Source of the DNA: Azolla caroliniana
Taxonomy: Eukaryota > Plantae > Polypodiophyta
NCBI GenBank assembly: GCA_043228905.1
Contig: JBHGNT010000402.1
Span: forward strand, 1 to 28,165
Reading direction: 5' to 3'
DNA: 28,165 nucleotides
Shown: piece by piece, positions 6,333-28,165 of the stretch
Layout of the letters: each line of letters begins with the position of its first letter
Numbering within the stretch: the stretch's first letter is position 1
The notes under the pieces: generated by a model
Told to the model about the DNA's origin: nothing
The model's input: only the letters and a program-made list of their open reading frames with translations
Databases searched by the model: none
Position numbers and translations under genes: made by a program

Positions 6333-6775
6333 AATTTCATGACTTTTATTAATGCATGACACTAATCTGACTAAAGTCTTACCTAAAAATATAAGGTGAT
6401 AATAGACTCACATCATAGTATGTAGATTAATCCATTGAACGACATATGTGATCCTTATGTCTTCATTTGTTTCCATTAATGCATGGATGACTCCAAAACT
6501 TGCATTAAAGTCTTAGTTGACTAACCAATCCTCAATTTAGTAGCATCAACCTTAGTAGCAATCTCATGATATTTATTATTGCATGACACTAATATGGCTC
6601 AAGGTTTACTTAGAAATATAAGGGGATACATACACTAACATGTTAATAGTACGTAGATAAATCCACTCAACAAAATATGCTCATTGAGTCATCCTCATGT
6701 ATTCATTTCCATTGATGGATTTGCAACTCCAAAACTTGCATTAAAGTCTTAATTGACCAACCCATTCTCATTTTG
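6333..6775. repeat. Old diverged tandem duplication, two copies of about 210-230 bp
   Basis: Shared blocks TGCATGACACTAAT, AAATATAAGG, GTAGAT.AATCCA and ACTCCAAAACTTGCATTAAAGTCTTA occur twice in the same order. Confidence 0.8.
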
Positions 6776-7839: not shown

Positions 7840-8102
7840 GTTTGAAATCAAATCTTCAAAATTGCCAGACAAGACATGGACCCATTGTTATGGAAACCAA
7901 TATAATAGAATAAGAGCAAGAACATGTGTTTGAAATGAAATCTTCAAAATTGCCGGACAAGACATGGACCCATTGTTATGGAAACCAATATAATAGAATA
8001 AGAGCAAGAACATGTGTTTGAAATGAAATCTTCAAAATTGCCGAACAAGACATGGACCCATTGTTATGGAAACCAATATAATAGAATAAGAGCAAGAACA
8101 TG
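7840..8102. repeat. Tandem repeat, 3 x 88 bp, nearly identical
   Basis: Units start at 7840, 7928 and 8016 (GTTTGAAATSAAATCTTCAAAATTGCC...GAGCAAGAACATG). Confidence 0.97.
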
Positions 8103-8856
8103 GTATAGTTAGATAAAGTAAATATTTTTGCTATTGTGGAAGCAAAGACCACTTTAACAAGAACAACTGCCACGAGGTGAAGTTTGTTACTATAAAACCT
8201 TTCGAGGACTATTAAAACAAGTGCACTAGAACAAGAACATGACCATGTGCCAAATTCAATTGTCCACCGAATGCATAAAAGAGCACACCTAAGTTAGTAT
8301 CATAATAATCCAAATATAAAACATTTGAACATCTATTCGAGGTCATATCCAACCATCATCAAATTTTCAATTGATAATTTATTTCCCATTTTATTACTTG
8401 CATCTTATAGCAAGATTAAAATGCAATATCCAAAAGCCTCCACGATGTTTTATTTGAATTTCTTTATTTTTTTTCTCTTGGGTAATTTTCAAAATCCTTT
8501 TAAGTGTAACAAAGGGTTGTTAATTTGAGTAATGCGCATCTTGGTAGAGTAAGCTCCTCAAGATGAAGAGAATGTCAACGATGTTAGAAAAAAAAATAGA
8601 AAAAAGAAGAAGTTGTCGATTGAGTTTTGTAGTTGAACCATTGATCATGATAATGTCTGGCTTTTGATCATGGGGATATTTTTGAGTTGCACTCTATTAA
8701 GTGTCATACATGAACTTCTCTTACAAGGATTTTGGTCTCATTCTTGCTAGTTAATGTCCACATGAAGAATGTCAAGTTGGGAAAGTTCTTTTCTCGAGTT
8801 TGTTTGCAAGGAGGGGTACATATTGGGCCCTTTGACTAAATCGGTTCATTCACAAT

Positions 8857-10884: not shown

Positions 10885-10943
10885 CGCCCCTTCAAACACA
10901 ACTTCCAGATGGTGGGTTCGGATTGGTCTCCGGATCATCACGA

Positions 10944-13094
10944 CTACGGTGACTCCGACTTTGGCTTCAAATGGCCGGGTGTAGTCCTATTGTCCCCCCT
11001 CAAGCTCGGTTGGTCAATGGTCGAAAGATCCCGGATTGTCATGAACTGCCACAGCTTGTCGACTCCCAAGGCCTTGGTGAAGATGTTGGCCATCAGTAGG
11101 TTTGTGTTAATGTATTGTAGGTCGACATCCCCGGCCAGAGCATGCTCTCGGATGAAGTGATAGTGCACTTCGATGTGCTTAGTTCGAGCATGGAAGATTG
11201 GGTTCCGAGCGAGGTGAATACTGCTCATGTTGTCGCAGTAGAGGAGAATTGGATCCTTTATGGGAACACCCAGATCCTTCAAGATTCTCTTAAGCCCAAC
11301 GGCTTCGCGTATAGCTACGGGCGTGCCCCTGTATTCGGCTTCGGTGCTCGATAGTGCGACTGTCGGTTGTTTCTTACTACTCCACGATATGGCACCACTG
11401 CCGAGAGAAAAGACAAATCCGAATGACGATCATCGGTTGCCTCTGTAACTGGCCTAGTCGGCATCGGTATAACCTTCGAGTCATACTGGTGTGGTCGATT
11501 TGTAAAGGATGCCGAAATCCATGGGTGTTCCACTCACGTACCTTAGCACTCGCTTAGCACAGTCGAGATGGATGTCTCGCGGAGTTTGCATAAATTGGCT
11601 AAGGAGGCCAACCAGGTAACTCAGGTCGGGTCATGTAATTGTGAGGTAGATGAGGCTTCCGACTAGTTGACGATAATGTGTCGGCTCACACTCTCTAGTG
11701 CCTGAGTCGGCATCTAGCTTTAGATTTCGATCGAGAGGAATAGTGACGGGCTTACACCGTGTCATCCCAAACTTGTAAAGAAGATTGAGGGTATAATGCT
11801 TTTGAGAGAGCATGATGTCGTCTAGAGTCCAAATTACTTCTATTCTTAGAAAGTCATGGAGCTCCTTCATATCGGTCATTTCGAATCAGTTGGAGAGGAG
11901 CTTCTTGATGTGCTCAATATCCGCTAAATGCTCTCCTCCTATGACCAAATCATCCACATAAATGATGATAAATACCTGTCCTCTGGAGTCTCTCTGGATG
12001 AACAGAGAGTTGTCAGACTTGGACATGTTGAAGCCAATTTGATGAAGATATTGCATTATCTTCAAATGTCATGCTCTCGGTGCCTGCTTCAGACCGTAGA
12101 GAGGCTTTTTGAGTCGGCAGACATCAATCAAATGCGTAGTCGACACGAATTCGGGTGGTTGCACCATGTACACCTCTTTGTCTAGCTCGCCTTGCAGAAA
12201 GGCATTCTTTACGTCCATTTGGTGGAGGTGCCACCCTTTTGCTGTTGCCAACGCAATCACGGTTTGAATTATAGTCAACTTTGCCACCGGGGCAAAGGTC
12301 TCTTCATAGTCGACATTGTGCGTCTGCGCATGCCCCTTTGCCACAAGCTGAGCCTTGTACCGATGGACAATGCCGTTGGCGTTGTGCTTTATCTTGAAGA
12401 TCCACCTGCACCTGCATCCAATTGCCTTTTGGTGGTTTGAAGAATGGACGAGATCACATGTCTCGTTCTTCGAGAGTGCTTACATCTCCTCATCCATCGC
12501 TTCGACCCATCTAGGGTCTTTCACGGCTTCCGAATAGTTTTCCGGTTCTCAGACTGTCGACACCTTCATCATCAATGCATAATGATATGCCATGTAGTCG
12601 TTGTAGCCAAATCGGCTGACTACGTTCTTTTCTCAGGTGGATCGACGTGGTTCTCCTGGTGTCCTCATGATGGGCACATCCAATCTACCAAACTCACTGT
12701 CGGATAAGTGAGTCGATTAATTTCCAACTGAGTTTTCGTACTCAAGCATTTTGGCCTTTCGTTTGTCCTATTTCGAACTCGACCGTGACGTGCTTTGGTC
12801 ACTTAGATGCCCTTGCAGTCCACTCAACCTGGTTGAGATTGGACTTTCCTCTGATGTAAACCTCAGTCGATCATCCTCCTCGGCATCTGTGTCAAACTCG
12901 GTTTCGATTGTGTCGGATGGGGCTGATTTGACTATATACCAGGATGATGACTCGTCGAATACATCCCTACTCACTTGTACCTTCTTGGTGGATAGGTTGA
13001 AGCACTTATAACCTTTTTGGTCGAGTGAGTACCCTATGAGTATACATTTTTGTGACTTGAGATCGAGCTTCTACCGCAGGTTTTCGGGGATATG
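10944..13094 (-). pseudogene. Copia A pol remnant (integrase C-term, RT, RNase H)
   Basis: KCILIGYS..QKGYKCF..SRDVFDE; DYEETFAPVAK, LHQMDVKNAFLQG, LYGLKQAPRA; YRQLVGSLIYL; YCDNMSSI..ARNPIFHARTKHIEVHYHFIRE. Confidence 0.95.
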
Positions 13095-13224
13095 TGTGGA
13101 AAGTTGGTAGGTGTGTGCGTATGCGGAAGTGTATGAGAACCTGTTTGCTGACTCGGAAAACAACACTGAAAGGGAGGAAGGCAGGGAGTTACACAGAAAC
13201 GAGCTTTAATGGAAAGGTTTATTA

Positions 13225-13259
<35 letters not shown>

Positions 13260-13428
13260 AGACTTGATATACAATATCTAGTCAAGAAGATCTTTCTTTA
13301 CAACGTTTGGTTATTGCTTATATACTAAGCCCTAACTATGTGGACGAGGTTACACTAGGATACAAAGTGGAGGGAATCGACCTTTTATGCCAACTAAATT
13401 CCCCGTAAAAGGACTAATATTTCCAACA
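13095..13428 (-). repeat. 3' LTR of Copia B
   Basis: 13095-13368 aligns to 27912-28165 with about 15 substitutions and a CT-run length difference; termini TGTGGAAA...TTTCCAACA; right edge inferred from the terminal inverted repeat only. Confidence 0.85.
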
Positions 13429-13561
13429 TGTACATGTGTTTGGGGTTGTCTCCCCCATAAAATTAGATTACAACACTAATCTAGATTTATGTTACAAGTC
13501 GGTTGGCAAATAGTTGAGTCGGCATAAGTGAGGTCCGTATCGAGCGTAGCATGGCTCATTA

Positions 13562-15497
13562 TCATGATTGATTCGGTTGACTCTTACCTTCTGCTCCTCG
13601 TTCAACTTTCTTCTGCTCGGTTGCTTGTCGTAGTCCCATCTTTTTCCTTACTGCTCTGAAGCATTGATCTGGGAGTGGCTTTGTCAGGAAATCAGCGATG
13701 TTCACCTTAGAGTTGATATTCCAGACTTCGAACATCTTCTCCGTTGTGAGCTCCCGGATGTGATGATACCGCACCTCAATATGCTTTGTCTTTGTGTGAT
13801 AGACGGGATTATTGATGAGGTGTATTGCGCTCTATGAGTCGCAATAGATGGTTGGCGATAGACGGTCGGTTTGGCTTGTATCCGAGAAGTCAACAAACAG
13901 TCGGTGCAACCAGATGGCTTCCTTTGCTGCTTTCGATGCCGCTATGTACTCGACTTCTATGGTAGACAACGTCGTGCACTCTTGAAGTTTAGACCTCCAT
14001 GATATTGCACCACCAACATAGGTGAAGATGTAGCCTGATGTCGATTTCCAATTATCTATATTTCCAGCATAGTCGGAATCGGTGTAGCCTTCAACTTCGG
14101 TTTAGGTTGTCAAACTGAAAGTCAGTTGTGTATCTTCAGTTCCTCTCAGGTACCTGAAGATGTGCTTGACGGCCTCCCAATGCTTCCGTCTTGGGTTTGA
14201 CATGTACCGGCTGACCACTCCTACGGCATAGGCTAGGTCGGGTCGGGTCACCACCATTGCGTACATGATACTTCCTACGGCCGATGCGTAAGGAATCTTT
14301 CCATTAAGCTCTCTCTCCTTTTCCGTTGAAGGAGAGTCTCTGTTCGATAGTCAAATCGACGTCGGAAGCGGTGTTGGTGCTGGCTTTGCATTCTCCATAT
14401 TGAAGCGCTTCAACACCTTTCGGATATAGTCGGACTGGGAGAGTCAAAGAGTCTTGGTCATCCGATTTTGCTCGATCCTCATGCCTCGTATGTGACAGGC
14501 TTGTCCGAGTTCCTTCATCGCGAACTTGTCGTGAAGGCTCCGCTTCAGCTTTTTGATCTTTGCTTGATTGCTTCCTGCAATCAGCATATCGTCGACGTAT
14601 AGGATCAGATAAATCCTAGACTCATCCGCCAGTTGCCAAATATACATGCATGGGTTGGAGTCAGATCTATAGTATCCAAGTTCCCTGATGTAGGAATCAA
14701 ACTTCTGGTACCACATCCTCGACACTTGTTTCAAGCCATATAGGATTTTCTTTAATCGACATACGAGATGACTGTCCTCCCCCGTCGTCGTGAAACCGGC
14801 CAGTTGAGACATATATATGTCTTCTTCCAGATCTCCATGTAGAAATGTTGTCTTTACATCCAGGTGCTCTAGCTCTAGGTCGACCCCGTATTCTTGTTTG
14901 AATCCCTTCGCAACAAGCCGAGCTTTGTACTTGGGGTTATTTTTAGTCGGATACATGTTTGTATCGGAAAACCCATTTGCAGGGTAGCGGCTTCCTTCCA
15001 GCTGGTAGTTCAACCAGCTCCCATGTCTGATTTTTATGACTCGAGTCCATTTCAGATTTCATGGCCTGTTGCCATGTGTCGGCGTCCCTTGCGGCCATAA
15101 CTTCTTCATAAGTATTTGGTTCGCCTACATCGGCGTAGTTGACGTAGTCGACGCCCGGTTGATAGAACTCTGTCGGCCTTCGAGGTCGTCCAGATCCCCT
15201 AGGTGCCGAGGTAAGTGGTTCAGATTCTTCAATCAACTCTGTAGGTCGATCAATACTTGTTGAACCATTTGTGTCAGGAGTCTTGTTGGGTGACCCCCCC
15301 CAAGTTGGGATTTCAGTGGTGTCACTTTGTCCTCCCCTATGAATTTCGTCGACTCGGTTTGGTTTCCTACTCGCATCTTGTTGACTTTGCCTGCTTCCAC
15401 TCTGGTTGAATAGGCTCTGTCATTGATGGCTTTGTCTTTGAGTTCGACTAGTGGACTTCCCACCGATTCGGAGTCAACAGAGCAGGTATGTTGTCGG
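13562..15497 (-). pseudogene. Copia B pol remnant (linker, RT, RNase H)
   Basis: WQQAMKSEMDS..KNQTWELVELP.G.K...CKWVF; KARLVAKGF; LDVKTTFLHG; LYVDDMLIAG; GYTDSDYAG..STSGY; TKHIEVRYHHIRE. Confidence 0.95.
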
Positions 15498-15916
15498 TGT
15501 TAGGAACAATACTAAGACAAAGAAGGAATATAGTACTAAAAGATGAGGATTAGTATTAAGGGAGGTGTAAAACTCTTGAGAGAGGAAAGAGAGAGTGAGT
15601 GTGTGTGAGAGAGAATGATGATAACAAAAGATATATATTATGTTAAGAGAATATACAATAGTAGCTTAGGAGGCTTAAGACTGGCGTTGAACCGATTTGG
15701 TTTGAAATAATGCCTTGTGCCTCCTTTTAGAGTGTTCTCAGGAGTATTCCTGAAGTTTCTAGAATGTTCCAAAGAAATCTATAATATACATCAATTTTTT
15801 ATAGTAAAACTTAAATGAAAATAATTCCTTCGTATTACAACATATAGTCTAATGGTCAAGAGCTCGACCCATGTAACATAAGGTCATTGGTTCGAGTCTT
15901 GTCATATCATATGACA
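15498..15916 (-). repeat. 3' LTR of Gypsy C (419 bp)
   Basis: TGTTA...TGACA; aligns end to end with 25535-25957. Confidence 0.95.
15845..15899 (+). promoter_or_regulatory. tRNA-like Pol III A-box and B-box in LTR U3, antisense to the element
   Basis: TAGTCTAATGG at 15845 and GGTTCGAGTCT at 15889; 44-nt offset equals tRNA positions 8 to 52. Confidence 0.65.
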
Positions 15917-15930
15917 ATATCCCCCCCTTA
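15917..15930 (-). other. Polypurine tract of Gypsy C
   Basis: Minus strand TAAGGGGGGGATAT immediately before the 3' LTR. Confidence 0.88.
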
Positions 15931-15980
15931 CAACAACGAGTGTCATGAGTCGTTTTGGATTGAGGACCCAGTTTGTCTCG

Positions 15981-16780
15981 ATATTGATGATGGAAGTCTT
16001 CAAGAAGAGCACGAGCATTGGTCACATTCTCTATTGGTTCCCAAGTACGCTCGTTGGAACTATATCCTAGCCAATCGACTAAATAGTAGAGCTTGGTGCG
16101 AACAATCTTGGAATCGAGGATGGCGGCAACCTTGTACTCAAGTCCATCTTCAAGTTCGATCGGGGGTGGAGGTTGTTTAATACGACCTGGGATGGTATGA
16201 TAGGGTTCGAGGAGAGAACTATGAAACACCAGATGTATCCGAAGTTGTGGAGGTAGATCGAGACGAAAAACGACATCATTAATTTTTCCGATAATACAAA
16301 AAGGACCTAATCGCCGATAATCCAACTTCCCGCATGGGCGAGTAGTCTTGATGTGTTGTTGTAGTAGCCATACCCGATCTCCAATGTTAAAACTAGATGG
16401 AAGGCGATGACGATCCGCGTAAACCTTGTGTGTTTGTTGAGCTTGTTATAGATGAGTAGATAAATCTGCTTGTATCTTGCGTATCTTGCGTATCTCTGCA
16501 CAAGGATTTGTGGGTAACTCTAGGGTTTCAAATACACACCACTAGGGGTGACAGTCCGTATAAGCATAAAATGGTGTAACCTTTGTCGATGAGTGGATAG
16601 AGTTATTATATGCAAATTCAGCAAAGTGGAGAATATCTACCCAGTCATCTTGATGATAGCTTAGAAAGCACCGAAGATACTGCTCCAACGTTTGATTTGT
16701 TCGTTCTACTTGGCCGTTTGTTTGCGGGTGGTAGCCGGAGGAGAGGTTACAAGTGACCTTGAGCATTTTAAAGAGGTGCT
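15981..16780 (-). pseudogene. Gypsy C integrase C-terminal half with GPY/F motif and chromodomain
   Basis: SGYHPQTNGQVERTNQTLEQYLR, AEFAYNNS.HSST; LGPF; EYKVAAILDSK..YYLVDWLGY..ERTWEP. Confidence 0.95.
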
Positions 16781-17047
16781 TCTAGCTTTGCATAAAGACC
16801 ATGTTCTCAAAGTCATTTTAGTACTAACAGTACATGAGAATAATGCTCTTCTTAGGTCTTCGAATAAACCAGTAGATCATCCAAATAGATGATCAAACAA
16901 ACATCCAAGAGGTCTCGGAATATATCATTTGCCATGTGTTGGAAGACTGTTGGCGCATTAGTGAGGCCAAATGACATGACTGTATACTCGAAGTGCCTAT
17001 ATCTGGTGCGAAATGCGGTCTTCCATTCATCTCTTGGTTGGATCCGT
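16781..17047 (-). pseudogene. Gypsy C RT core, part downstream of insert D
   Basis: [37 protein letters not shown]. Confidence 0.93.
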
Positions 17048-18469
17048 TGTCGCGAAAATACGACAAGGATACGTGAACGTTGAGGCAAGACCCCGGGGCC
17101 TTTGACTAGAGGATATCAAATTCGTGTATTTATGTACTAAGAATTAACCGAAATGAGAAAGATTAACAAATTTCATTAACAAGTAGAAAGAAAGATTACA
17201 ATTGATCCCGAGACTGGGATTACAAAAGTTTGCTAATGGAGATGGCTAGAGTAATAGATTAGAAGAAATGAAATATGGATTTAATTAGAATATTAGGGTT
17301 TTTAGCTTTAATTCGAAAATTAGGGTTTTTGAGTTATATGGCTTTGATTAGGACATTAGGGTTTATGACTTCCGTAAGGAAATTTAGGGTTCTTGGCTTC
17401 GATAAGATAAGAGAGCTCCGAAAGAAAAGGAAAAAAATTAAGATAATATGGAGAGTCTAAGTATAGGAAAAAAATGGAATTTTATATGGGGTTCTTCCTT
17501 GATCATCTGCATGTTCACTTTTTGTTGTCTAGCCTCTACTTTTAGTTGCTTAGCTTTTTCTTTTAGTTGCATGCGACCGTCCACATGACCTTTACTTTTT
17601 GCATGCACTCCAACTTTAGTTGCTTGCGTCCACATGGCCTTTACTTTAGTTCTCTTCACTTTACTTTAGTTTGTTGCATGATCCAATCTTCCATCCGTCC
17701 GCATCCAACCTCGTTCGGTAGCCGGTTCCGCCCGATCGCTGAATCCCTCGCCGGCCGGTTCCGGTTAGCTTGCCGGTTCTAGTTCCGATTTTGCTTGCCG
17801 GCCGGTTCCGGTTTTGCTTGCCGGCCAGTTCTGGTTCTGGTTTGCTTGCCAACCGGTTCCGATTCCGGTTTGCTTGCCGGTTCCAGTTCCGATTTTGCTT
17901 GTCGACCGGTTCCGATTTTGCTTGTCGACCGGTTCCGGTTTTGCTTGCCGGCCGGTTCTGGTTCTGGTTTGCTTGCCAGCCGGTTCCGGTTTCCAGATTT
18001 GCTTACCGACCGATTTCCGGATTTGCTTGTTGGCCGGTTCCGGTTCTGGTTTGCTTGCCGATTCCAGTTCCGGAATCCAATTTTGCTTACTGACCGGTTT
18101 TCGATTTGAATGCTGGTTCCAGTTCCGGTTTTGCTTACTGGCCGGTTTCTGGTTTTTTGGGAACTTGGCCACCATCATCCATCAAGACAAAGTGGCCAAA
18201 GTGCTCTCAGCACAAATGAAAAATGAGGGAGCTCAAGGTGCTTATATAGCCAGGGCCTTAAGTTTCCTATCTATGTGGGATAGTTCTAATTGCCCTATCT
18301 TCTCAAACTTTATTTTCACATAACTTGATATGTATTTCTCCATTTTGTATATAGTAAAATACATTTTGAAGCTCTTGAGTATATCCATTTTTCTATAGTA
18401 AGCTACTAATCTAATCTATAATAATTATTTCATTATTTTTTTACATAGTGTGTGAAGATTCACACAACA
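17048..18469 (-). mobile_element. Insert D: solo-LTR-like element, 1422 bp
   Basis: TGTCGCG...CACAACA ends; CCGT duplicated at 17044-17047 and 18470-18473; removal restores host [15 protein letters not shown]; minus-strand CTATATAAG near 18241-18249 suggests orientation. Confidence 0.8.
17750..18158. repeat. GC-rich minisatellite, about 16 units of about 22-32 bp (GCCGGCCGGTTCCGGTTTTGCTT-like)
   Basis: Recurrent TTTGCTT anchors with variable numbers of CCGGTT hexamers. Confidence 0.92.
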
Positions 18470-19430
18470 CCGTATGAGGTTATATACTCCTCGTAAGTCG
18501 ATCTTTGTGAAGAACCTTGCACCATTGATCCCTTTTAAAAGACTTGAGATAAGGGGAAGTGCATACCTATTCCTGATGGTGACCTTATTCAAGCTACGGT
18601 AATCTACGACGAGACGAAGTGATCCATCCTTTTTCTTGACGAAGAAAATGGGTGCGTCGGCTAGAGATTTCGAATGTCGAATGAAACCATTTGCCAAATT
18701 CTCCTCTATATAGGCTTGAAGGACTTCTAGCTCGGTTGGTGAAAAATTGTAGATCGGTCCCCATGGTGGCTCTTTTCCCGGTTGTAAACCGATGGGGCAA
18801 TCATACGGTCGATAGTGAGGAAGCGTATTGGCTTGTACTTTATCGAACACATCGGCATAATGACGATACTTCTTTGGAAGTTGAACGGTGGACTCTTCTT
18901 TAGTGGTGTTGGAGGGTTTTACTGATACTGCGAAGAGAAACATTTCTTCCTTGTATCCTTCCTCGGGTTTGTCGATACCGGATTTCTCTTGTTCTCCAAT
19001 CTATGTCTGGGTTGTGTAATTCGAACCATGGTAATCCTAAAACAATGGGATGTTCTGGGATACTAATTATATTAAAGGATACTACACACGCTAAATTATC
19101 TAGGGCAATATTAACGGGCTTTGACTCTTCTATGATATTTCCCGAAGCAATGGGACGACCATCAATGATTACTACAAAGGCTGGACACGGGAGTATTTTT
19201 AGGGATATCTGATGAGCTTGGGAAAAATTCCTATCCATGAAGCAGGAATTAGCTCCAAAATCTAGGAGTGTTGAGACATGTACTAGAGAGGTACTTTTAG
19301 TACTAATTGTTACTTGGGCTAAGAATACATTGCTAACTTGCTTAGAGGGAATGGAACCACTAATGGGCTGCACAAATCTAGGGTTGTCCAACCAAACGAC
19401 TCCTATTTTGGCTAGACTTAGTCATTTAAC
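18470..19430 (-). pseudogene. Gypsy C protease and RT N-terminus
   Basis: LLDFGANSCFMD (mutated DSG), IVLGLPWFELHNPDIDW; LPHYRPYDC.I, APIFFVKKKDGSLRLVVDYRSLN, FTKIDLRG.YN. Confidence 0.93.
19386..19430 (-). promoter_or_regulatory. Putative gag-pol -1 ribosomal frameshift signal
   Basis: GTTAAAT heptamer, 6-nt spacer containing the gag TAA, then an 11-bp stem; protease ORF is in the -1 frame relative to gag. Confidence 0.65.
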
Positions 19431-19693
19431 TCTTCTTCTAACTGACTAACGACATCAAATTTGTTCGATAGATTTGGGCTATTAGTACTATTAGGACTAT
19501 CAGATATTCCTACTGAAATAGACTCGGGTTTAGTACAATTAGAACTAGCAACTATTTGGTTCACCTGTCTTCTTGGCCTATGGGGACAATTCATTGCAAT
19601 ATGCCCTGGTCCACCGTAATAAAGACATAGTCGATTTGCTTGGCGTCACTACTTTTCTTCTTCCAGTAATGGTCCACGACGACGTGTAGTGTC
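19418..19693 (-). pseudogene. Gypsy C gag C-terminus with decayed zinc knuckle
   Basis: RRRGPL...NRLCLYYGGPGHIAMNCP; stop at 19418-19420. Confidence 0.88.
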
Positions 19694-20036
19694 TGTTTAT
19701 GGGTGGGGGATGGAGCCAAGATCGGCTCCACCCCCCTCCCAAGGGGGTTCGAGTGTGAGAGGAGAGAGGGAGAGATGAGATGCACAGAGAGAACGAATGA
19801 GAGAGAGAGAGAGAGAGAGAATCGAGACAGACACAATTTAGAGTAACTTCGATATCATTTTTTCATGCCCCATGAGTGAGGATTTATATAATAGAAGATC
19901 TTTACAAAAAGCCGAATGGATGTAGGTACACACCTACTTACCTCACCTAACACTCAGACATTCACATTTCATATTACACCTCACACACCACCTTCCACAT
20001 TACACCTAACCCTCCCGTACACCTATACGGGTAACA
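19694..20036 (-). repeat. LTR-like left terminus of E (343 bp), orientation tentative
   Basis: TGTT...AACA ends; minus-strand TATATAAA at 19883-19890; GA microsatellite; abutted by a PBS-like motif; no second copy in window. Confidence 0.55.
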
Positions 20037-20038
20037 CC

Positions 20039-20055
20039 TGGCACGCTCGTGGGAC
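20039..20055 (+). other. tRNA-Arg PBS-like motif TGGCACGCTCGTGGGAC
   Basis: 2 nt after AACA; inverted near-copy at 24020-24036. Confidence 0.7.
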
Positions 20056-22180
20056 AGTGCATTGCATGGCGTACCCACAAGCCCATGGCAAAAACTCGTT
20101 GACCAGAAACTCCATCGGTCTTCTCTCGACGGTCGAAAATCCCTCGACCGGAACATTTCTCTACGATCGATAACTTCGATCGGAGCTAGCATGACACGAA
20201 CCTTCTCATTCAGCCAGCATAATGCACGATTGGATCACACACCAATCAGCTTGTCCATTGTGATAAAGTCGTTCAGGGTTTAAAAATGATTCTGGGTGTA
20301 AGTGTATGTATACATATATTTTTTCTACATTGGTGTGAGTGGTGATAGGTTTTTGTTCCATCAATTTTTCGAAATTCTATCTCGTACCCCTCAGTTGTTG
20401 AAATTCTAGTAGCTACCCTTATATTTTTGAAATTTATTTACTATCCTTTGGTTTTCGAAATTTTTCGTTGTGCCCTCGTCTGAAATTTGTGGTGATGCCT
20501 TTCCCTTTCTCTTCGTCTTTTTAGGTTTCGGTTTCTTCTGTGCCCTTTTCTTTCTTTCTTCTTTCTCTTCTCCTTCTCTATGTCTTCTATCTCTGTTGCG
20601 ACAGAAACGATGCTTTGTTCTCTTCTTCTTCCTTAGTTTTCTTGGTTCAGTCATCTTCTGCTCCATCTGCAGTCTCAATCGAATGTCTGTATGTCTCTCT
20701 GTGTAGGTCCTTCCTTCTTCGCCTTCTTCTTTCTGCTGCTCCATCTTCGCTTTCCCTCCCTTCTTCTCTTGTTGTGTGTTGTTGTTCTTCTTTGTTTCTT
20801 TTGTCTTTGTGTTTTCATCCGCTTGTAGCAACCACTGCATCTTCCATGACTCCAACTCATTCTTCCTCTTCTTGTAGTTCGTTTGCTTTTGTTTTTTTAT
20901 TTGTTTTCCCCTTCATTTTGGCGGTTGGCTGCTCCGATTTTTTTGTCTATTGGCCAGCTTGTCAGCTGTCCATGGCCTATCTGATGACTTCCTTTGTTCG
21001 ACGGCCGTCGTCGTCTGTCCGGCCATCGCATTTCTCGGTAGTAGCCATTCGCGGCCGTCGCTTGGCTCTTGGCCGTCCTTGCAGCCGTGCTAGTGCTTGG
21101 CCAACTATCCCTCGACCGCTCCTATTCTTATTTGGCTGCATCTCAGCTTCTCAGCCGTCTCTCTAGGCCTATTCTCGATGCTCGGTCGTCGCTTTCGACC
21201 ATATATTGGTTGACGCTCGGCCGTGGCTTGGTCGACTCTTGGCTTCTTGGTCACTTTCTCACCTGTGGTTTGTTCGACCGACTCTCTATTCGGTTGTGTC
21301 TTTCTAGTCGGACTTTGGCCATCTCGGCTAGTCGGTCAATTGCCGAACCATCTGCATGGCTAGCTAGTTGCTGCCATCCCACTGCTGATTCACTGCGTTG
21401 CTCGTCTTTATCCACCAACCGACTCTCTGTCCATTTGGCTCTTGTTGTTGATGGAAATAAACAAAGAATGTGTTTTCTCTTCAATATTGAACCTTATACA
21501 CCTTAGGTTTTGTTTCTTCTTCCCTTCCGGTATATGGTTAATGATACTTGATACAAATAGAGCAATGTGGCCTATTTCATTATTAGGACATATGACCCCG
21601 ATCCTTATCTAGAAAATTTGTAAGGAGTAAGTAAACCCATAATAATGCTAACTCTATCATCTCTCTTACTCTTTTACGTATATATATACTCTGCTACAAT
21701 GGTTAAATACTTGATCTCACTATCCGGTTCCACCACAAACCCTTCATGAGAATCAAAGAAGACCATTAATGGAGCACACGCACTCTGTCGATACATCATT
21801 ATACATCGATCATATGTGCTTTATCTTCCTTGTTCATGACCTGCATTCCTCTTTTCTCTAAACTTGAATCATTGGTAGATCTTGGCACTAAACCAGATAT
21901 ACAAGTGACTTCACCACTTTATTCCAGAATAAGTTAGCTATGGCTACTATTGCCATTTCCTTCAAACTCTGCTATGGACCTCTTGATGGAGTGATTTAGA
22001 AGGTGTTTGATTGTTAGTTTCATGTAATTTATTAATTTCTGAATCTGCTTCTTCCTCCTCCTGATTACAAGCAATAGAGTGGCACAAACACACACAACAT
22101 AAAGATGAAGACCTAGAGACACATAGGGGAACAAAGAGGGAAAGAGAGATTTCTATTCAAGGGTGGTAGGCCGTAGGCAA

Positions 22181-22235
22181 AGCCTAGGCGAGGTCATTTC
22201 ATAGATATAGGAGCTTTTCGCTAGAAAGGTTAACA
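22181..22235 (+). repeat. Fragmentary 5' copy of the right-hand LTR of E
   Basis: 22181-22217 matches 24227-24263 (34/37); ends GGTTAACA like 24521-24528. Confidence 0.75.
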
Positions 22236-22240
22236 CAATT

Positions 22241-22253
22241 TGGCACGCCTGGT
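22241..22253 (+). other. Primer-binding site, tRNA-Arg type (TGGCACGCCTGGT)
   Basis: 5 nt after the GGTTAACA LTR end and upstream of gag. Confidence 0.75.
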
Positions 22254-22530
22254 TACAGTTGTGAGATCACAGCGAACTACGTTGAAGACAACCTTTACCC
22301 GCCATTACGACGCCCAATCGCACCAAGCGGTCTCGGCCATTTGGCCGACGCCCTGAGCCAGTCGAAGGCACTTCTGACTCGGCGGTCACGGACCAGTCCT
22401 TCCCAGAAACATCGGAGGCTCACCGGTTGCAATCCTCGCCACACCAACCTCTCCATCAAGCCCTCCAGAGGTCAACCACCCTAACCCTAACCCTTTTCCG
22501 GCTTTACCGGAAGACTCCGAATTCGATACC

Positions 22531-23230
22531 ATGTCGTATCCTTACCCACAATACACCAACAGCCCCGATGCGGAGTCGCATGTTCGTGCCTTCGTGTCCA
22601 CCTGGCAAACCAACCACTCAACCCAGGGACTCTCGCCTGTCGAAATCGAGGCCTCAAAAATTGCTGAGTTTATGCTATCCCTCGATGGACCAGCTGCGCA
22701 ATGGTATTCTGGCCTCGACACAGGGGAGTTTGTCGCCTTCCACGATGTTCGCACACAGTTCCTAGAATTGTTCCATCGCGAGGTGCCCAAACGAGAATTG
22801 CTCCGACAGTTCTTTTCCATGCGACAAGAACCGCACGAGACGGTCGCACAGTTCACGATCCGGTTTCGGTATGTCTCTGCACAGCACATTCCGGGCGCAT
22901 TCCTGTCCAGCCTACGGGAGCCTCTACGGACGACTCTTGTACTTACTAATTTTGACAACCAAATGATCGAGCAAGTCATAGTGCGCGTCCTCGCCCTCGA
23001 TCGGACTCAACAAAGCATGGCTTTCTCTATGAGTTCACTGCAAAGCGCCCTTCCCCAGGAGGACAATCGCTTCCGCCACGCCCTCCAATGCACAGTTTGT
23101 TCGGGATCGGGCCATCTGGCCCTCGAATGTCCTCACCGACCACAGTGTCCGATCCGCCAGTCCCGATCCCACACGGTTGAACACTGCGAATACAATATGC
23201 TCAACCACACAACGACGGCTCCGGTTTGGA
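22531..23230 (+). pseudogene. Gypsy gag remnant of E with two zinc knuckles
   Basis: F.LSLDG.AAQWY, MRQEPHETVAQF..RF; CTVCSGSGHLALEC and decayed CPIRQSRSHTVEHC. Confidence 0.88.
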
Positions 23231-23923
23231 CCCACAATACTACCAACACCAGATCCACCTTCTCCCGGACGCTCGGCTGGTTCAGCAAAGACGATATCGG
23301 ATGAACCCCAATTATGTGGCTAAGGTCAAGGAAGAAATAGACAAGCTCCTCCGAGTCGGGTTCATACGACCGGTAAAACGCGCCACATGGTTAAGCCCAA
23401 TCGTAGTCGTCCCCAAGAAAAACGGGAAAATCCGAGTCTGTGTGGACTATCTCGCAAGCTTAATGCTGCAACGGTCATGGATGGATTCCCTCTCCCGTTC
23501 ACGGATAGTGTTCTCGACATGGTGGCAGGTCACGAATGCTACAACTTTCTAGACGGGTTCAGTGGGTACAACCAAATCAGAATGCACCCGGATGATCAAG
23601 AGAAAACAACATTTGTCACGGAATGGGGTGTTTTCGTGGCAGAAGTCATGATGTTCGGTTTAAAAATAGCGTTAGCCACGTTCAAGCGCATCATCACCGA
23701 AATTTTAAACGAGTATATCCCGACGTTCATGCAAGTCTTCCTCGACAACTTCGCCGTATATGGTCAGCGACTGGAACACATGACCCAGTTACGTCTCTGT
23801 CTTGATCGATGTCGCCAGGCTCAGTTAAGTTTAAGCCCGGTAAAATGCGCATTCTTGGTCACAAGCAGCAACCTACTCGGACACATCGTCAGTCAAGAAG
23901 GTATCGCCATGGACCCGGAATAA
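23226..23923 (+). pseudogene. Gypsy RT remnant of E (non-chromovirus-like); protease, RNase H and integrase absent
   Basis: WLSPIVVVPKKNGKIRVCVDY, FLDGFSGYNQI, MMFGLK.A.ATF.R, VFLDNF, LLGHIVSQEGI. Confidence 0.93.
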
Positions 23924-24019
23924 AACCAACCTCTAAGCCCCGTAGGAACGGACAATTTTTGTAATCCGTGTGGTTTTGTTAAATCCATGGTGAATCGTGG
24001 GTCTGACGGACAAAGTCCT

Positions 24020-24036
24020 GTCCCACGGGCGTGCCA
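24020..24036 (+). other. tRNA-3'-end-like (anti-PBS) motif GTCCCACGGGCGTGCCA at the expected PPT position
   Basis: Ends in CCA, followed by GG and the TGTTG LTR start; largely complementary to the PBS at 22241. Confidence 0.7.
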
Positions 24037-24038
24037 GG

Positions 24039-24528
24039 TGTTGTCCATAGGCCAAAAATAGAAATTAGTTAAATGTAATACGCTGGAAGTAAGGCGAGTA
24101 GGTAAGGGAGAGTTAGGTAAAAAGCTGAGTTTTGAGCCTCACAGTTAGCTGACCGCTCGGTGTTGTATGAAGGAAAAGAAGTATATAAACCGAGGTCTGC
24201 GTACCTCGGTAGGGGGAGATATCCAGAGCCTAGGCAAGGTCGTTTCATAGATATAGGAACTTTGTAAGGCTACCGGCTGTGGGCCGTGTTTTTTTGTAAA
24301 CCTCGCTAACTATTGCAGTAAAACATATCTATTAACTCTTGTTGTTTTCATCTGTGTGTCGTCGTTTCTAAGGTCTCAACTACGTATACGACCTGGGCTC
24401 TATTCCGGGTATGATCTCCGTGTTCTTCCCTTAACAACACCCCTGTGCACAAGTCTTCACGATTACACTTCCCTGGATACCGATAGCTTGTAGGCATATC
24501 GAAGGTGTTTCCCGCAGAACGGTTAACA
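24039..24528 (+). repeat. Right (3') LTR of E, 490 bp
   Basis: TGTT...AACA ends; TATATAAA at 24182-24189; partial copy precedes the PBS and gag; left edge inferred. Confidence 0.7.
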
Positions 24529-25408
24529 GTGTCAATTTCCATCGGAGTTGGAGTATTCACTGGAGACGCATTATATGACTCCCTTGGAAAAGGTTTTGCT
24601 ACCAGTGAGGCATAGGTGGGCTCTAATCTTGCCCTTGGCATCTGGAACTCATGTTTCGAACGTCGTTCGAAAAGACGGTTGTCGCATCTCACCGCGTGAC
24701 TGATTGCTTCTATCAATGACTTTGGTTCTTCGAGGAAGGTCAACAATAAATCCTTGACATTGTTACGTAGACCATAACGAAATTGCTCCATTAGTTCTTG
24801 GTCATCCTAGGGGATATCGGAGGCGAGTAGGCGGAAATCTACAACGTATGCGGGGGTTGGACGATCACCTTGACGTAATCATCGGATTTTATTGATTGTT
24901 GTCCTTATGTTGTTAGTATCTCCAAAACAAGCTTTAAACTCACTTAAAAACTCTTCAAAATGTTTAGTAAAGGAGATTCCTTTTCTAACAACGGAGTGAA
25001 CCATGCCAAAGCTAAGCCACTTAACAACGTGCCTGCTAAACCCACTCGTGATGCATCGATGGGATATTAGGAAGGATGCATTTGAATGACTAATCGTACA
25101 TGATTAAGGAATCCTCTAAACTGCGATCGCGTTCCATTGAATTTCATGGGAAGACCGATCTTGGGTTCTTTAAGAATCCCTTGCGTACTGGGTCCTTGTT
25201 GTTGGATCGCTACTATGGTTGATTCGAGTTGTTGCACGCGTAACACTAGTTCCCCATGTTGTTGTTGTGTCTGTTGCTTCTCTAAGGAGATTTGTTGAAG
25301 CTCCCCCAACAATCGTTGATTTTCTTGTTCCAATGCAAGAAAATTCTCTTTCAAGCATTGCAACTTCAAGAAAATGGATTGATATTCTTGAGCGCTATCA
25401 GTAGCCAT
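24529..25408 (-). pseudogene. Gypsy C gag N-terminal and capsid region
   Basis: ATG at 25408; Q/E-rich coiled-coil-like start; EPKIGLPMKFNG.RSQFRGFL; QFRYGLRNNVKD; PTPMEID. Confidence 0.92.
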
Positions 25409-25534
25409 AGTATGAGAGAAAAGAGGAATAAGAGATTAGTATGAAGGGAGCGAGAAGTAAGAAGATAAGGAAGAGAAGGAAAGAGACCAAAATTGGTTCA
25501 AACAGTCGGAAACAGTACTAAGACAACAAAGTAC

Positions 25535-25957
25535 TATCAGGAACAGTACTAAGACAGATAAGGAATTAGTACTAAAAGATGAGGATTAGTATTAAGGGAG
25601 GTGTAGAACTCTCGAGAGAGGAAAGAGTGAGTGAATGAGTGAGTGACAGAGAGAGAGAGAATGATGATAACAAAAGATATATATTATGTTAAGAGAATAT
25701 ACAATAGTAGCTAGGAGGCTTAAGACTGACGTTGAATCGATTTGGTTCGAAATAATGCCTTGTGCCTCCTTTTATAATGTTCTCAAGAGTACTCCTGAAG
25801 TTTCTAGAATGTTCCAAAGAAATTTGGAATATGCATCAATTTTCTATAGTACCTAAATGAAAATAATATCCTTGGTATTACAACATATAGTCTAATTGTC
25901 AAGAGCTCGACTCATGTAATATAAGGTCATGGGTTCGAGTCTTGCCATATCATGACA
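25535..25957 (-). repeat. 5' LTR of Gypsy C (423 bp)
   Basis: Aligns with 15498-15916; TATCA (mutated TG end)...TGACA; minus-strand TATAAAA at 25770-25776. Confidence 0.93.
25888..25942 (+). promoter_or_regulatory. Second copy of tRNA-like A/B boxes in the 5' LTR
   Basis: TAGTCTAATTG at 25888 and GGTTCGAGTCT at 25932. Confidence 0.6.
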
Positions 25958-27806
25958 ATCGGCTTGTTCGAGTTCGACTGTTTGTCGAATCTTTGATTCA
26001 ACTTGGTGGGTCGGTTTTTCTATGACGTCTCAGTCGTCTTTGAAAGATACCTTTTTCCCTACTATTTTCTTATGGTTCCGTTGAGAGAAGATAGAGTCTT
26101 CATTGAAGACTACATCACTGCTCCGGATCAATTTTCGGTTCTTAGGGTCCCATAGCCTGTAGCCGAATTCCCCATCGGTTCCATAACCGAGAAATATGCA
26201 TTTCGTTGCATGGGCTGCCAATTTTGTCATTTTATCCCTGGGGATGAACACGTAGGCTTCACATTCGAATATACGGAGCCTATCATAGGTCGGTTTTTTT
26301 CCTGACCATAGTGCCTGTGGCACTTCAAGCCTAATTGCTCTTGACGGCGCCAGATTTATCAGGTATACTTCCGTTTGCAATGCTTCTGCCCAGAATTCCA
26401 GCTTCAGTTCGGCTTGTTGAAGCATTGCTGTCACCCTCTCCTAGATCGTTCTGTTGATCCGTTCTGCCACTCCATTTTGCATGGGTGTGTAGGGAACGGT
26501 CTTTTGAAGTCAGATCCCTTTGTTGGACACGTCTTGTTTGAAGGCTCTGGAGGTGTATTCGCCTCCATTGTCGGATCAGAGTGTCTTCACTCTATGTCCC
26601 GACCGGTTCTTACTTCAGATATCCACCGAGTGAAGACCTCGAGTGCTTCGTCTTTGGACCTGATCGAGTAGGCCCAGACCTTCTGTGTACAGCCATCTAC
26701 AAAGGTGATGAAGTACTAGGAGCCTCCTAGTGATCGCTCTAGCAGGGGTCCACATATATCTACGTGCACGAGCTCTAGGGGTTGTCGTACCATCTCGTAG
26801 TGGAGAGTGTGCAGACTTCGGGTCTGTTTCCCATATCGACAATGCTCGCAAAAGTCCGTGTTCGCTTAGGATTTTGGGATGTAGCCTACTGCCATCAGCC
26901 GATCAAGTCTGGCTTGAGACATATGGCTGAGTGACTCGCCATGCGAGAGGTTTGGGTCGGTCTTTTCGGCTACGTTCACGGACCCCTTCTGAATTGATCG
27001 TCATTAGCGGCTATAGGTTGTTGTACTTGTGCCCGCCTCTTATCTTCAGGTTTGCTCGAGTGATCATCCAGACCGACTCAATTAGAGTCGTTTTGTCCCC
27101 ATCTTCGGCTAGCATGCCGATGGAGACCAGACTCCTTTTCAGGTTAGGTACATGCCAAACTCGGTGCAGGGTTATTGTGTTGCCATTTGGTAATCGGATG
27201 GGAACCTCTCCGGTCCCTGCAATTCTGCACTCCTGCCCGTTGCCTAGATGGACTGTGCCATTGGTGTCGGTTGAATAGTCCGAAAACCATTCAATGTTGG
27301 GGGTCACATGGAATGTGGCACCAGAATCCAGTAGCCACGTGTGTGCATCCTGTGCACTGTAGAGGACTTCTCCGATCACTGAATCCTCTAATGAGAGAAC
27401 TTCTCTGGATCGGGAGTCGGCAACGTTGATTTGGTTCCCGACTGGAGAGCAGTCCGATTTGGGTCGTCCTCGATTCCTTGAAAAGTTGTTTGATCAAAAT
27501 TAGTTTTGAAGATGAGGACTTCTTCTCGTACACATGTTGTAACTTTTCCCATAGTGATAACGTTGTCGTCTCTTTTTCCATGCTGAAGTAGACATTTTCG
27601 GCCAGATGCATTTGGATGGTGGAACGTGCAATTTCGTCCATCGATTTCCACGCTTCGGTTGTCATCGAAGCAGGTTTTTCACTGTGTCGAATAGCTTTGA
27701 CTTGTCTTTTGATGATCAGAACATCCTGCATCATCTCCTTCCATAGTGCAAATTTTTTGCCATCGAACTTTCTGATTTCAACTCTAGTTCCGAATGTTGA
27801 AGCCAT
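25958..27806 (-). pseudogene. Copia B gag, protease and integrase remnant
   Basis: KFDGKKFALWK; WLLDSGATFHVT; FCEHCRYGKQ; SDNGGEY; FWAEALQT..YLIN; KCIFLGYG..GYRLWDP..SSDVVFNE. Confidence 0.95.
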
Positions 27807-27896
27807 ATTCTTCTATGAAAGGTGAGATTTTTTTACTGACCTCGTCTTTTTCTTTTGAGCTTCTTCTGTTTTCTGTTGCCGCTGAACAACAAGGTC

Positions 27897-27909
27897 GGTT
27901 CTGATACCA
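27897..27909 (-). other. Primer-binding site, initiator tRNA-Met type (TGGTATCAGAACC)
   Basis: 2 nt inside the 5' LTR; one mismatch to the usual TGGTATCAGAGCC. Confidence 0.9.
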
Positions 27910-27911
27910 TT

Positions 27912-28165
27912 TGTGGAAAGTTGGTAGGTGTGTGCGTATGTGGAAGCGTATGAGAACCTGTTTGCTCACTCGGAAAACAACACAGAAAGGGAGGAAGGCA
28001 GAGACTTACACAGAAACGAGCTTTAATGGAAAGCTTTATTACGTTCTCTCTCTCAGAGACTTGATATAAAATATATGGTCAAGAAGATCTTTCTTTACAA
28101 CATTAGGTTATTGCTTATATACTAAGCCCTAACTATGTGGACGAGTTCACACTAGGATACAAAGT
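27912..28165 (-). repeat. 5' LTR of Copia B (partial, cut by window end)
   Basis: Matches 13095-13368. Confidence 0.95.

What the first reader, a model, noticed from the sequence alone, without database searches (positions are those of the whole stretch)
19689..24533. One perfect TSD encloses two unrelated LTR-like ends
Seen: GTGTC flanks both sides and excision restores host gag, so this looks like one integration event. Yet the left terminal unit (19694-20036) and the right one (24039-24528) show no similarity beyond TGTT/AACA ends, seem to have outward-facing TATA boxes, and each has the same tRNA-related motif on its inner side. Only a short piece of the right LTR recurs before the PBS and gag. 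Inference, alternatives: (a) concerted integration of ends from two different cDNAs, later joined internally; (b) one very long compound LTR with heavy deletions; (c) an element type with asymmetric termini.
Basis: partly seen in the sequence, partly recalled or inferred. Interest (0 to 1): 0.7.

Follow-up and report, generated by a model that had tools for sequence, protein, structure and literature searches.

The report
Two retrotransposons integrated as one
This plant DNA insert carries the ends of two different jumping-gene families inside one insertion scar, a hybrid form that recurs in this genome, and it likely arose when one integrase complex gripped one end of each of two separate DNA copies, a pairing known from test-tube work that would also explain a precise inversion found elsewhere in the genome.

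Summary
One 5-bp duplication (GTGTC) encloses the 3' LTR of a non-coding family L (inverted) and the 3' LTR of an autonomous Ty3/gypsy family R, both U5 ends outward. L and R are independent, normally paired families, so a long compound LTR and an asymmetric element type are refuted. Such hybrids recur: 6 of 27 L insertions are bounded by a TSD shared with another family, against 0 of 38 ends of the helper family R2. One locus (C3) holds a complete L and a complete R2 with crossed TSDs and the host DNA between them inverted. That is the footprint expected if two integrase complexes each took one end from each cDNA (U5+U5, U3+U3). Best reading: two-donor concerted integration, inner ends later joined with deletions (0.6); joining during reverse transcription is the main rival (0.25). 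The inner motif is a tRNA-Arg(TCT) 3' end standing where the polypurine tract should be; captured mature tRNA copies suggest tRNA priming at both LTR ends. The scan noted this PPT-less lineage, and one inverted hybrid, before on other DNA of this genome. No read bridged the junctions.

The parts
19689..19693 (.). Left target-site duplication GTGTC
   Evidence: same flank in the C2 copy
19694..20036 (-). 3' LTR of non-coding family L, inverted, U5 end outward; TATA box at 19883-19890
   Evidence: paired and solo copies genome-wide; orientation from TATA, from the side carrying the mirror tRNA site as in R, R2 and S, and from L U5 ends followed by a PBS
20039..20055 (-). Mirror tRNA-Arg(TCT) site of L in the PPT position (tRNA 3' end in L sense, 2-nt spacer); one substitution in this copy
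20056..22177 (-). Internal region of family L; ends inside L's 5' PBS; a 240-bp stretch present in the C2 copy is missing
   Evidence: no Pfam match for 2 window ORFs and 24 ORFs of another copy
22178..22235 (+). Remnant of the R 5' LTR: positions 186-225 joined through TTT microhomology to the last about 20 bases; L|R junction at 22177/22178
22241..22253 (+). 5' PBS of R after a CAATT spacer, complementary to tRNA-Arg(TCT) (13 nt in the family form, 9 contiguous here)
22378..23226 (+). gag of R with small deletions
   Evidence: Pfam Retrotrans_gag E=4e-9
23223..23919 (+). Fragment of R reverse transcriptase; protease region lost upstream, RNase H, integrase and extra ORFs lost downstream, both joins at microhomologies
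   Evidence: Pfam RVT_1 E=6e-16; gag-RT join unique among 40 scored copies
24020..24036 (+). Mirror tRNA-Arg(TCT) site of R in the PPT position, 17 of the last 18 tRNA bases, inside a predicted hairpin
24039..24528 (+). 3' LTR of autonomous family R, U5 end outward; TATA box at 24182-24189
24529..24533 (.). Right target-site duplication GTGTC
15531..25953 (-). Host Ty3/gypsy element whose gag is interrupted by the insert; its LTR pair differs at 27 of 409 aligned bases

Best explanation
The insert is a hybrid of two independent LTR families inside one target-site duplication, and it likely arose when one integrase complex paired the U5 end of an L cDNA with the U5 end of an R cDNA and inserted both at one site, after which the two free inner ends were likely joined by repair with loss of sequence. 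Shown: two families, inverted arrangement, both U5 ends outward, one TSD, recurrence of hybrids, and a crossed-TSD inversion at C3. Inferred: L is non-autonomous and shares particles with R-type helper RNA, both RNAs are copied to cDNA, integrase pairs ends across molecules, and the further microhomology deletions came after insertion. Also inferred: both families start their second strand from a host tRNA-Arg at the mirror site rather than from a PPT.
For: (1) C3:19389030-19409973 holds a complete R2 (flanks ATGAC/TTCCC) and a complete L (flanks GTCAT/GGGAA). The flanks are reverse complements crosswise, and the 3.4 kb of host element between them is inverted, its ends abutting both outer flanks. 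This fits U5+U5 at one TSD and U3+U3 at the other, and the two LTR pairs are of compatible age (13/455 and 5/333, p=0.24). (2) C15:7045005-7047433 repeats the window's layout (R2 minus, L plus, U5 out on both sides; ATTGT/ATTGC), with flanks contiguous in other host copies. (3) Three more TSD-bounded hybrids in direct orientation: C13 (TCAAT), C1 (TCACA), C20 (CTTTA). (4) Hybrids are 6 of 27 L insertions (6 of 20 resolved) and 0 of 38 R2 ends (0 of 33 resolved); without the window, 5/19 vs 0/33, Fisher p=0.004. This fits a passenger that usually travels with a foreign RNA. (5) In vitro, HIV-1 integrase prefers U5/U5 pairs from two donors and makes a 5-bp TSD (PMC8742673, passages); Ty1 integrase inserts two U5 donors concertedly (PMC8487063, passages). 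(6) Deletion after insertion is shown at this locus: the window lacks 240 bp kept in the C2 copy, and C2 lacks 5 kb.
Against: In the window the inner ends are lost, so two full cDNAs are not seen here. The junction falls inside L's PBS and about 40 bases after the start of R's TATA box, both plausible stops of unfinished minus strands, which favours rival 1. Only one crossed locus was found. A survey of 29 older L-type U5 ends found no further TSD-bounded hybrid within 10 kb; most stayed unresolved. Seven more L-type 3' junctions added none either. The L set was chosen by similarity to the window's LTR, so the rate may not hold for the whole family. The three direct-orientation hybrids can also arise by strand transfer at the shared PBS. 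Co-packaging and non-autonomy are not tested experimentally.
Confidence: 0.6

Rival explanations
1. The two minus strands were joined end to end during reverse transcription in one particle (or a strong-stop DNA jumped to the mirror tRNA site), giving one linear DNA with two U5 ends that integrated normally.
For: The L side stops 8 nt into its PBS and the R side starts near the expected transcription start (LTR position 186; TATA at 144). C7:19241393-19243070 has an inverted L-like LTR placed U5-first at a mirror tRNA site with the 5'-type spacer, the footprint expected of a mis-aimed second strand transfer. Template switching between co-packaged RNAs is proposed in PMC1950507 (whole text read).
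Against: It cannot produce C3, where both elements are complete and the host is inverted. No microhomology longer than 1-2 nt was seen at the L|R junction. The transcription start is not mapped. In C15 the join is deep inside both elements.
Confidence: 0.25
2. Sequential conventional insertions: L inserted, R later inserted at exactly the same 5 bp (or an ectopic repair swapped one half), and deletion removed the middle.
For: Deletions after insertion are common at this locus. LTR ends share TGTT/AACA and the PBS, which could seed ectopic template switches.
Against: It needs re-use of the identical 5 bp in six independent loci. Recombination between independent insertions does not keep a TSD (PMC1950507). 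At C3 both inversion breakpoints would have to fall exactly on TSD-LTR borders.
Confidence: 0.1
3. Misassembly or chimeric read in a small unplaced contig.
For: The window is a whole 28-kb unplaced contig, and the chromosomal copy lacks the R half.
Against: The host|L junction is in both copies. The exact TSD with host continuity, the resumed alignment with C2 at 27219, and a 4-bp microhomology (GCAA) at the C2 deletion that uses bases of the L|R junction all argue for real DNA. Five like loci lie on chromosome-scale contigs.
Confidence: 0.03
4. An element type with asymmetric termini, or one very long compound LTR.
For: None beyond the single TSD.
Against: R has matching LTRs and a TSD (at most 1 mismatch) in 9 of 9 pairs checked; L forms 14 conventional pairs or solos among 27 insertions; the deleted R half is not amplified.
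Confidence: 0.02

Closest known systems
Two-donor concerted integration in vitro (HIV-1 IN, Li and Craigie 2005, PMC8742673, passages; Ty1 IN, PMC8487063, passages)
   Same: One integrase complex inserts two ends from separate donor molecules with a 5-bp TSD; U5/U5 pairs are preferred by HIV-1 IN.
   Different: There it is a test-tube reaction with short donors that linearises a plasmid. Here it appears as fixed chromosomal products between different families, one with a precise host inversion.
Template-switch complex insertions of Triticeae, rice and maize (Sabot and Schulman 2007, PMC1950507, whole text)
   Same: Two elements inside one TSD, explained by co-packaged RNAs.
   Different: Those have three LTRs in one orientation and near-identical outer LTRs. 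Here the outer LTRs are unrelated and, in the window and C15, inverted.
Aberrant HIV-1 proviruses under integrase inhibitors or mutants (PMC5041404, abstract only)
   Same: Integration events accompanied by deletions and inversions of host DNA.
   Different: Those follow impaired integrase. Here every outer end is precise and TSD-bounded, and two different elements are involved.
Plant non-chromovirus Ty3/gypsy, OTA superclade (Neumann et al. 2019, PMC6317226, passages)
   Same: gag-PR-RT-RH-IN order, no chromodomain seen, sense extra ORFs, 5-bp TSD, tRNA-Arg PBS.
   Different: No PPT; a mirror tRNA-Arg site instead. No additional RNase H, so not Tat as defined there. Nearest named proteins are 44-48% identical liverwort and conifer polyproteins.
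Helenus and Ajax TRIMs (Kojima 2024, PMC10886601, parts 1-4 of 6)
   Same: tRNA-derived sequence in an LTR retroelement.
   Different: There it lies inside the LTR as a Pol III promoter and PBS and PPT are normal. Here only the tRNA 3' end sits outside the LTR in the PPT position.

Membership tests
Ty3/gypsy LTR retrotransposon (parent family R) | Paired LTRs with TG..CA ends and 5-bp TSD | tested here: met
   9 of 9 R pairs checked; 27 of 38 R2 ends with TSD at most 1 mismatch
Ty3/gypsy LTR retrotransposon (parent family R) | Domain order gag-PR-RT-RH-IN | tested here: met
Ty3/gypsy LTR retrotransposon (parent family R) | tRNA PBS behind the 5' LTR | tested here: met
   complement of host tRNA-Arg(TCT) 3' end
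Ty3/gypsy LTR retrotransposon (parent family R) | Polypurine tract before the 3' LTR | tested here: not met
   longest purine run 4 (R) and 3 (L) in the 60 nt upstream; tRNA 3' end instead
OTA|Tat | Additional (archaeal-type) RNase H domain | tested here: not met
   no RVT_3 or RNase_H match in 28 ORFs picked from 56 of two near-complete copies; RH runs directly into IN
OTA|Athila / Phygy / Selgy | Placement in RT-RH-IN phylogeny with reference elements | not testable with these tools
   no REXdb reference set on hand; only unnamed or automatically named homologues
Template-switch complex (Sabot and Schulman) | Flanking TSD | tested here: met
Template-switch complex (Sabot and Schulman) | Near-identical outer LTRs in the same orientation | tested here: not met
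Non-autonomous LTR element (family L, LARD-like) | Paired LTRs, primer sites, no gag-pol coding | tested here: met
Non-autonomous LTR element (family L, LARD-like) | Mobilised in trans by a helper | not testable with these tools
   inferred from hybrids with R, R2 and an R-like family
Two-donor concerted integration product | One TSD around precise ends of two different cDNAs | tested here: met
   window, C15, C3
Two-donor concerted integration product | The two cDNAs were separate molecules when integrated | tested here: inconclusive
   implied at C3 by crossed TSDs; not decidable for the window
Helenus / TRIMp3 | tRNA-like Pol III promoter inside the LTR, with PBS and PPT | tested here: not met
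   tRNA 3' end lies outside the LTR and no PPT

The most novel reading that the evidence does not exclude
In this plant lineage both cDNA strands are primed by host tRNAs, and a non-autonomous family regularly leaves its particle with a second, helper cDNA so that integrase pairs ends across molecules. This would be a natural, recurring two-donor integration route that builds inter-family hybrids with clean TSDs and, when both end pairs insert, precise host inversions.
Probability: 0.45. Interest if true: 0.87.

Novelty: new variant of a known kind. Interest (0 to 1): 0.74.

Why it matters
One integration is normally taken to mean one cDNA with two matching LTRs; LTR finders, LTR dating and TSD logic all rest on that. 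A genome in which about a fifth of the sampled insertions of one family are inter-family hybrids, and in which one event swapped TSDs and inverted host DNA, would show that cross-molecule end pairing, known from in vitro work, happens in nature and is inherited. It gives a testable source of small inversions, names the helpers of a non-autonomous family directly, and bears on how many cDNAs a particle makes. The PPT-less, mirror-tRNA design of the parent families is a second testable departure from standard reverse transcription.

Tried and rejected
Public runs: no RNA holder listed. Contigs of five DNA runs were laid in two calls. The empty host site was seen, but no listed record bridged the L|R junction by 31 letters on each side; the tables were cut and the samples are probably other individuals, so this is inconclusive. 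One X5 record stops at 22180, where the C2 copy leaves the window sequence; its other part was not shown. An Rfam tRNA search scored only 63 candidates and missed the best-matching tRNA-Arg gene, which a pattern then found. One search's pattern caught only the 18-nt form (7 places); one search counted the 17-nt form. One search's pattern dropped L ends with C at the 13th flank base, so L ends followed by the CAATT spacer were not counted; one search likewise dropped some R2 ends, and only its first 100 of 233 rows (C1-C8) were used. One search gave too few rows to use. Survey of 29 older L-type ends: no new hybrid; 8 resolved as solo or same-family, the rest unresolved. Seven further L 3' junctions added no hybrid. 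C16/C1120 (L and R fused U5-to-U5 at a GTT microhomology) has no matching outer TSD and was not counted as a hybrid. The idea that the window and C2 alleles are two repairs of one fresh break was rejected: the two R LTR copies differ at 4 of 40 bases, the alleles by about 1%. Literature: nine topic searches on PPT-less or dual-tRNA priming and on hybrid, inverted or two-donor insertions, plus one on aberrant proviruses, found no description of either in vivo; the library lacks most subscription journals. PMC10085805 (passages) was not relevant. No supplementary files were read; those of PMC6317226 list PBS types per element and could bear on the lineage.
Full report
OBSERVATION. The window is a whole 28-kb unplaced contig (C402) of a 523-Mb genome. 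GTGTC stands at 19689-19693 and 24529-24533, directly outside TGTT and AACA, and the gag frame of the minus-strand host element is continuous across the empty site. The two terminal units share no significant similarity in direct orientation (297 of 300 shuffles score as high) and at most a faint one inverted (15 of 300). Both TATA boxes point outward, and each unit has the same tRNA-related motif on its inner side. A second copy of the locus on C2, about 1% diverged, has the same host|left junction but has lost window 22181-27218 at a 4-bp microhomology that includes bases of the internal junction.

TWO INDEPENDENT FAMILIES. The right unit is the LTR of family R (607 candidates, 40 scored). 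R elements are 9-15 kb or longer with nested inserts, carry gag-PR-RT-RH-IN and sense extra ORFs, and had matching LTRs with a TSD in 9 of 9 pairs checked. The left unit is the LTR of family L (1467 candidates, 40 scored), with a 1-3 kb interior without Pfam matches. Its sense is the window's minus strand, judged from the TATA box, from the side that carries the mirror tRNA site in the coding families, and from U5 ends followed by a PBS. The insert is therefore L's 3' LTR and interior, inverted, joined at 22177/22178 to a deleted R: LTR remnant, PBS, gag, part of RT, 3' UTR and 3' LTR. Both outer ends are U5 ends. R's large deletions sit at 2-4 bp microhomologies, and the gag-RT join occurs in no other of 40 scored copies.

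HYBRIDS RECUR. The 40 scored L hits make 27 insertions (C2 with the window, and C1120 with C16, counted once): 14 conventional pairs or solos, 6 bounded by a TSD shared with another family, 1 U5-to-U5 fusion without matching TSD, and 6 unresolved. The six are the window; C15 (same layout, ATTGT/ATTGC, flanks contiguous in other host copies); C13 (TCAAT), C1 (TCACA) and C20 (CTTTA) in direct orientation; and C3. As a control, 38 U5 ends of the autonomous sister family R2 with genomic flank on C1-C8 gave 27 conventional with TSD (at most 1 mismatch), 2 with two transitions, 4 R2-R2 pairs whose far flank was not fetched, 5 unresolved and no hybrid. Leaving out the window, 5 of 19 against 0 of 33 resolved gives p=0.004. 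Against this, 29 older L-type ends and 7 further 3' junctions gave no new hybrid, most staying unresolved, so the rate applies to the subfamily nearest the window.

THE KEY LOCUS. At C3:19389030-19409973 a complete R2 is flanked by ATGAC and TTCCC, and a complete L, 3.4 kb away, by GTCAT and GGGAA. The flanks match crosswise as reverse complements. Against an intact copy of the host family, the left flank covers positions 53-523 forward, the middle covers 494-5728 reversed and the right flank resumes at 5725 forward. Two integrase complexes, one holding both U5 ends and one both U3 ends, cutting two nearby sites, give exactly this. Two ordinary insertions followed by recombination do not, unless both breakpoints fall on the TSD-LTR borders (inference). 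The LTR pairs differ at 13/455 and 5/333 (p=0.24), compatible with one event.

MECHANISM. Inferred: L, having no proteins, is packaged with helper RNA; both RNAs are copied; integrase pairs any two TGTT..AACA ends. In vitro, HIV-1 integrase prefers U5/U5 pairs from two donors with a 5-bp TSD (PMC8742673, passages), and Ty1 integrase inserts two U5 donors concertedly (PMC8487063, passages). In the window only the U5 pair inserted; the U3 ends were likely joined with loss of about 350 bases of L and 185 of R, and further deletions followed, as the 240 bp kept only in the C2 copy shows. The rival is a join during reverse transcription: the junction lies 8 nt into L's PBS and near R's expected transcription start, and C7:19241393-19243070 shows an inverted LTR placed at a mirror tRNA site with the 5'-type spacer (its flanks TTATT/TTTTT are a weak TSD). 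I give 0.6 and 0.25. Both need two different RNAs in one particle.

THE INNER MOTIF. Host tRNA-Arg(TCT) genes end in the 15 bases that, with CCA, form the motif; they do not encode CCA. The element form matches 17 of the last 18 bases, and the match stops at tRNA position 59, next to A58, whose methylation is a known reverse-transcriptase stop (recalled). It stands 2 nt before the 3' LTR of R, R2, S and L, where no purine run longer than 4 was found in R and L. The exact 17-nt form before TGT occurs 450 times (control 0), before about ten LTR start sequences in the first 100 rows; the 18-nt form occurs 7 times. S uses another 5' PBS but the same 3' motif. Longer copies of the mature tRNA with CCA are joined to a U3 start (three copies in one tandem array, likely one event) and to U5 ends, which points to tRNA priming at both ends. 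The motif also folds into a hairpin, so an element-derived tRNA mimic as primer is not excluded. The scan's earlier notes reached the same reading on other pieces of this genome; they are not independent support. One described an inverted hybrid as a likely one-off, which the counts here do not bear out.

COMPARISON. Template-switch complexes (PMC1950507, whole text) have a TSD but near-identical outer LTRs; this fails that test. Aberrant HIV proviruses (PMC5041404, abstract) bring host inversions but follow impaired integrase. The parents resemble plant non-chromovirus Ty3/gypsy elements (PMC6317226, passages) but lack the extra RNase H of Tat and a PPT; nearest named proteins are 44-48% identical. 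Helenus (PMC10886601, parts 1-4 of 6) has its tRNA inside the LTR. Ten searches of the open library found no in vivo description of two-donor hybrids or of dual tRNA priming.

LIMITS. No read-level confirmation of the L|R or right junction; one crossed locus; counts from capped searches; no RNA data; organism not determined.

VERDICT. Real and recurring. New variant of a known kind; interest 0.74.

Noticed in passing
G000:C3:19389030-19409973 (L174, L175, L092): Complete R2 and complete L with crossed TSDs and a precisely inverted 3.4-kb host segment; used as key evidence and worth its own study.
   Followed up: yes
G000:C16:11227776-11252026 and C1120:2555-6434: L and R fused U5-to-U5 at a GTT microhomology; the R-side element has an R2-type 5' LTR and an R-type 3' LTR; outer flanks do not match. 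A young S element (LTRs 99% alike) is nested in it.
   Followed up: partly
G000:C7:19241393-19243070 (L170): Element with two inverted L-like LTRs, U3 out on both sides, the second placed U5-first at a mirror tRNA site.
   Followed up: partly
G000:C16:17527333-17527843 (L168, L169): Tandem LTR array whose U5-U3 junctions hold a perfect 18-nt tRNA-Arg 3' end in sense, like a retained plus-strand primer.
   Followed up: partly
G000:C2:12003811-12024668 (L143-L145): Tandem array of S-family elements with a 53-nt mature tRNA-Arg copy, CCA included, before three LTRs.
   Followed up: partly
G000:C918 (L217:1139-1224): Short chimeric LTR: 58 bases of R2 U3 joined to an L U5 tip, behind a mirror tRNA site.
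   Followed up: no
G000:C6:15709447-15714977; C13:8952467-8955192; L207: L elements with internal inversions or fold-back pieces near the U5 hairpin.
   Followed up: no
G000:C1:9811979-9816464: Six tandem 752-bp copies of a gag segment inside the C1 hybrid.
   Followed up: no
window 22177-22181 and G000:C2:8827881-8827884: The 5-kb deletion of the C2 allele starts 3 bases from the L|R junction; the coincidence is unexplained.
   Followed up: partly
window 13092-28165: Nesting: the host gypsy element lies in a minus-strand copia-like element whose LTRs are at about 13092-13368 and 27909-28165; another copia-like remnant lies at about 10900-13070 and a LINE remnant at 555-3501.
   Followed up: no
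window 17747-18147, 7840-8103, 6329-6774: GC-rich 23-to-105-bp repeat block inside the host element, a 3 x 88-bp tandem repeat, and a degenerate 230-bp duplication.
   Followed up: no
L209:9290-9930 (G000:C14): 570-bp near-perfect palindrome (96%) inserted in an L-type LTR, probably a MITE.
   Followed up: no
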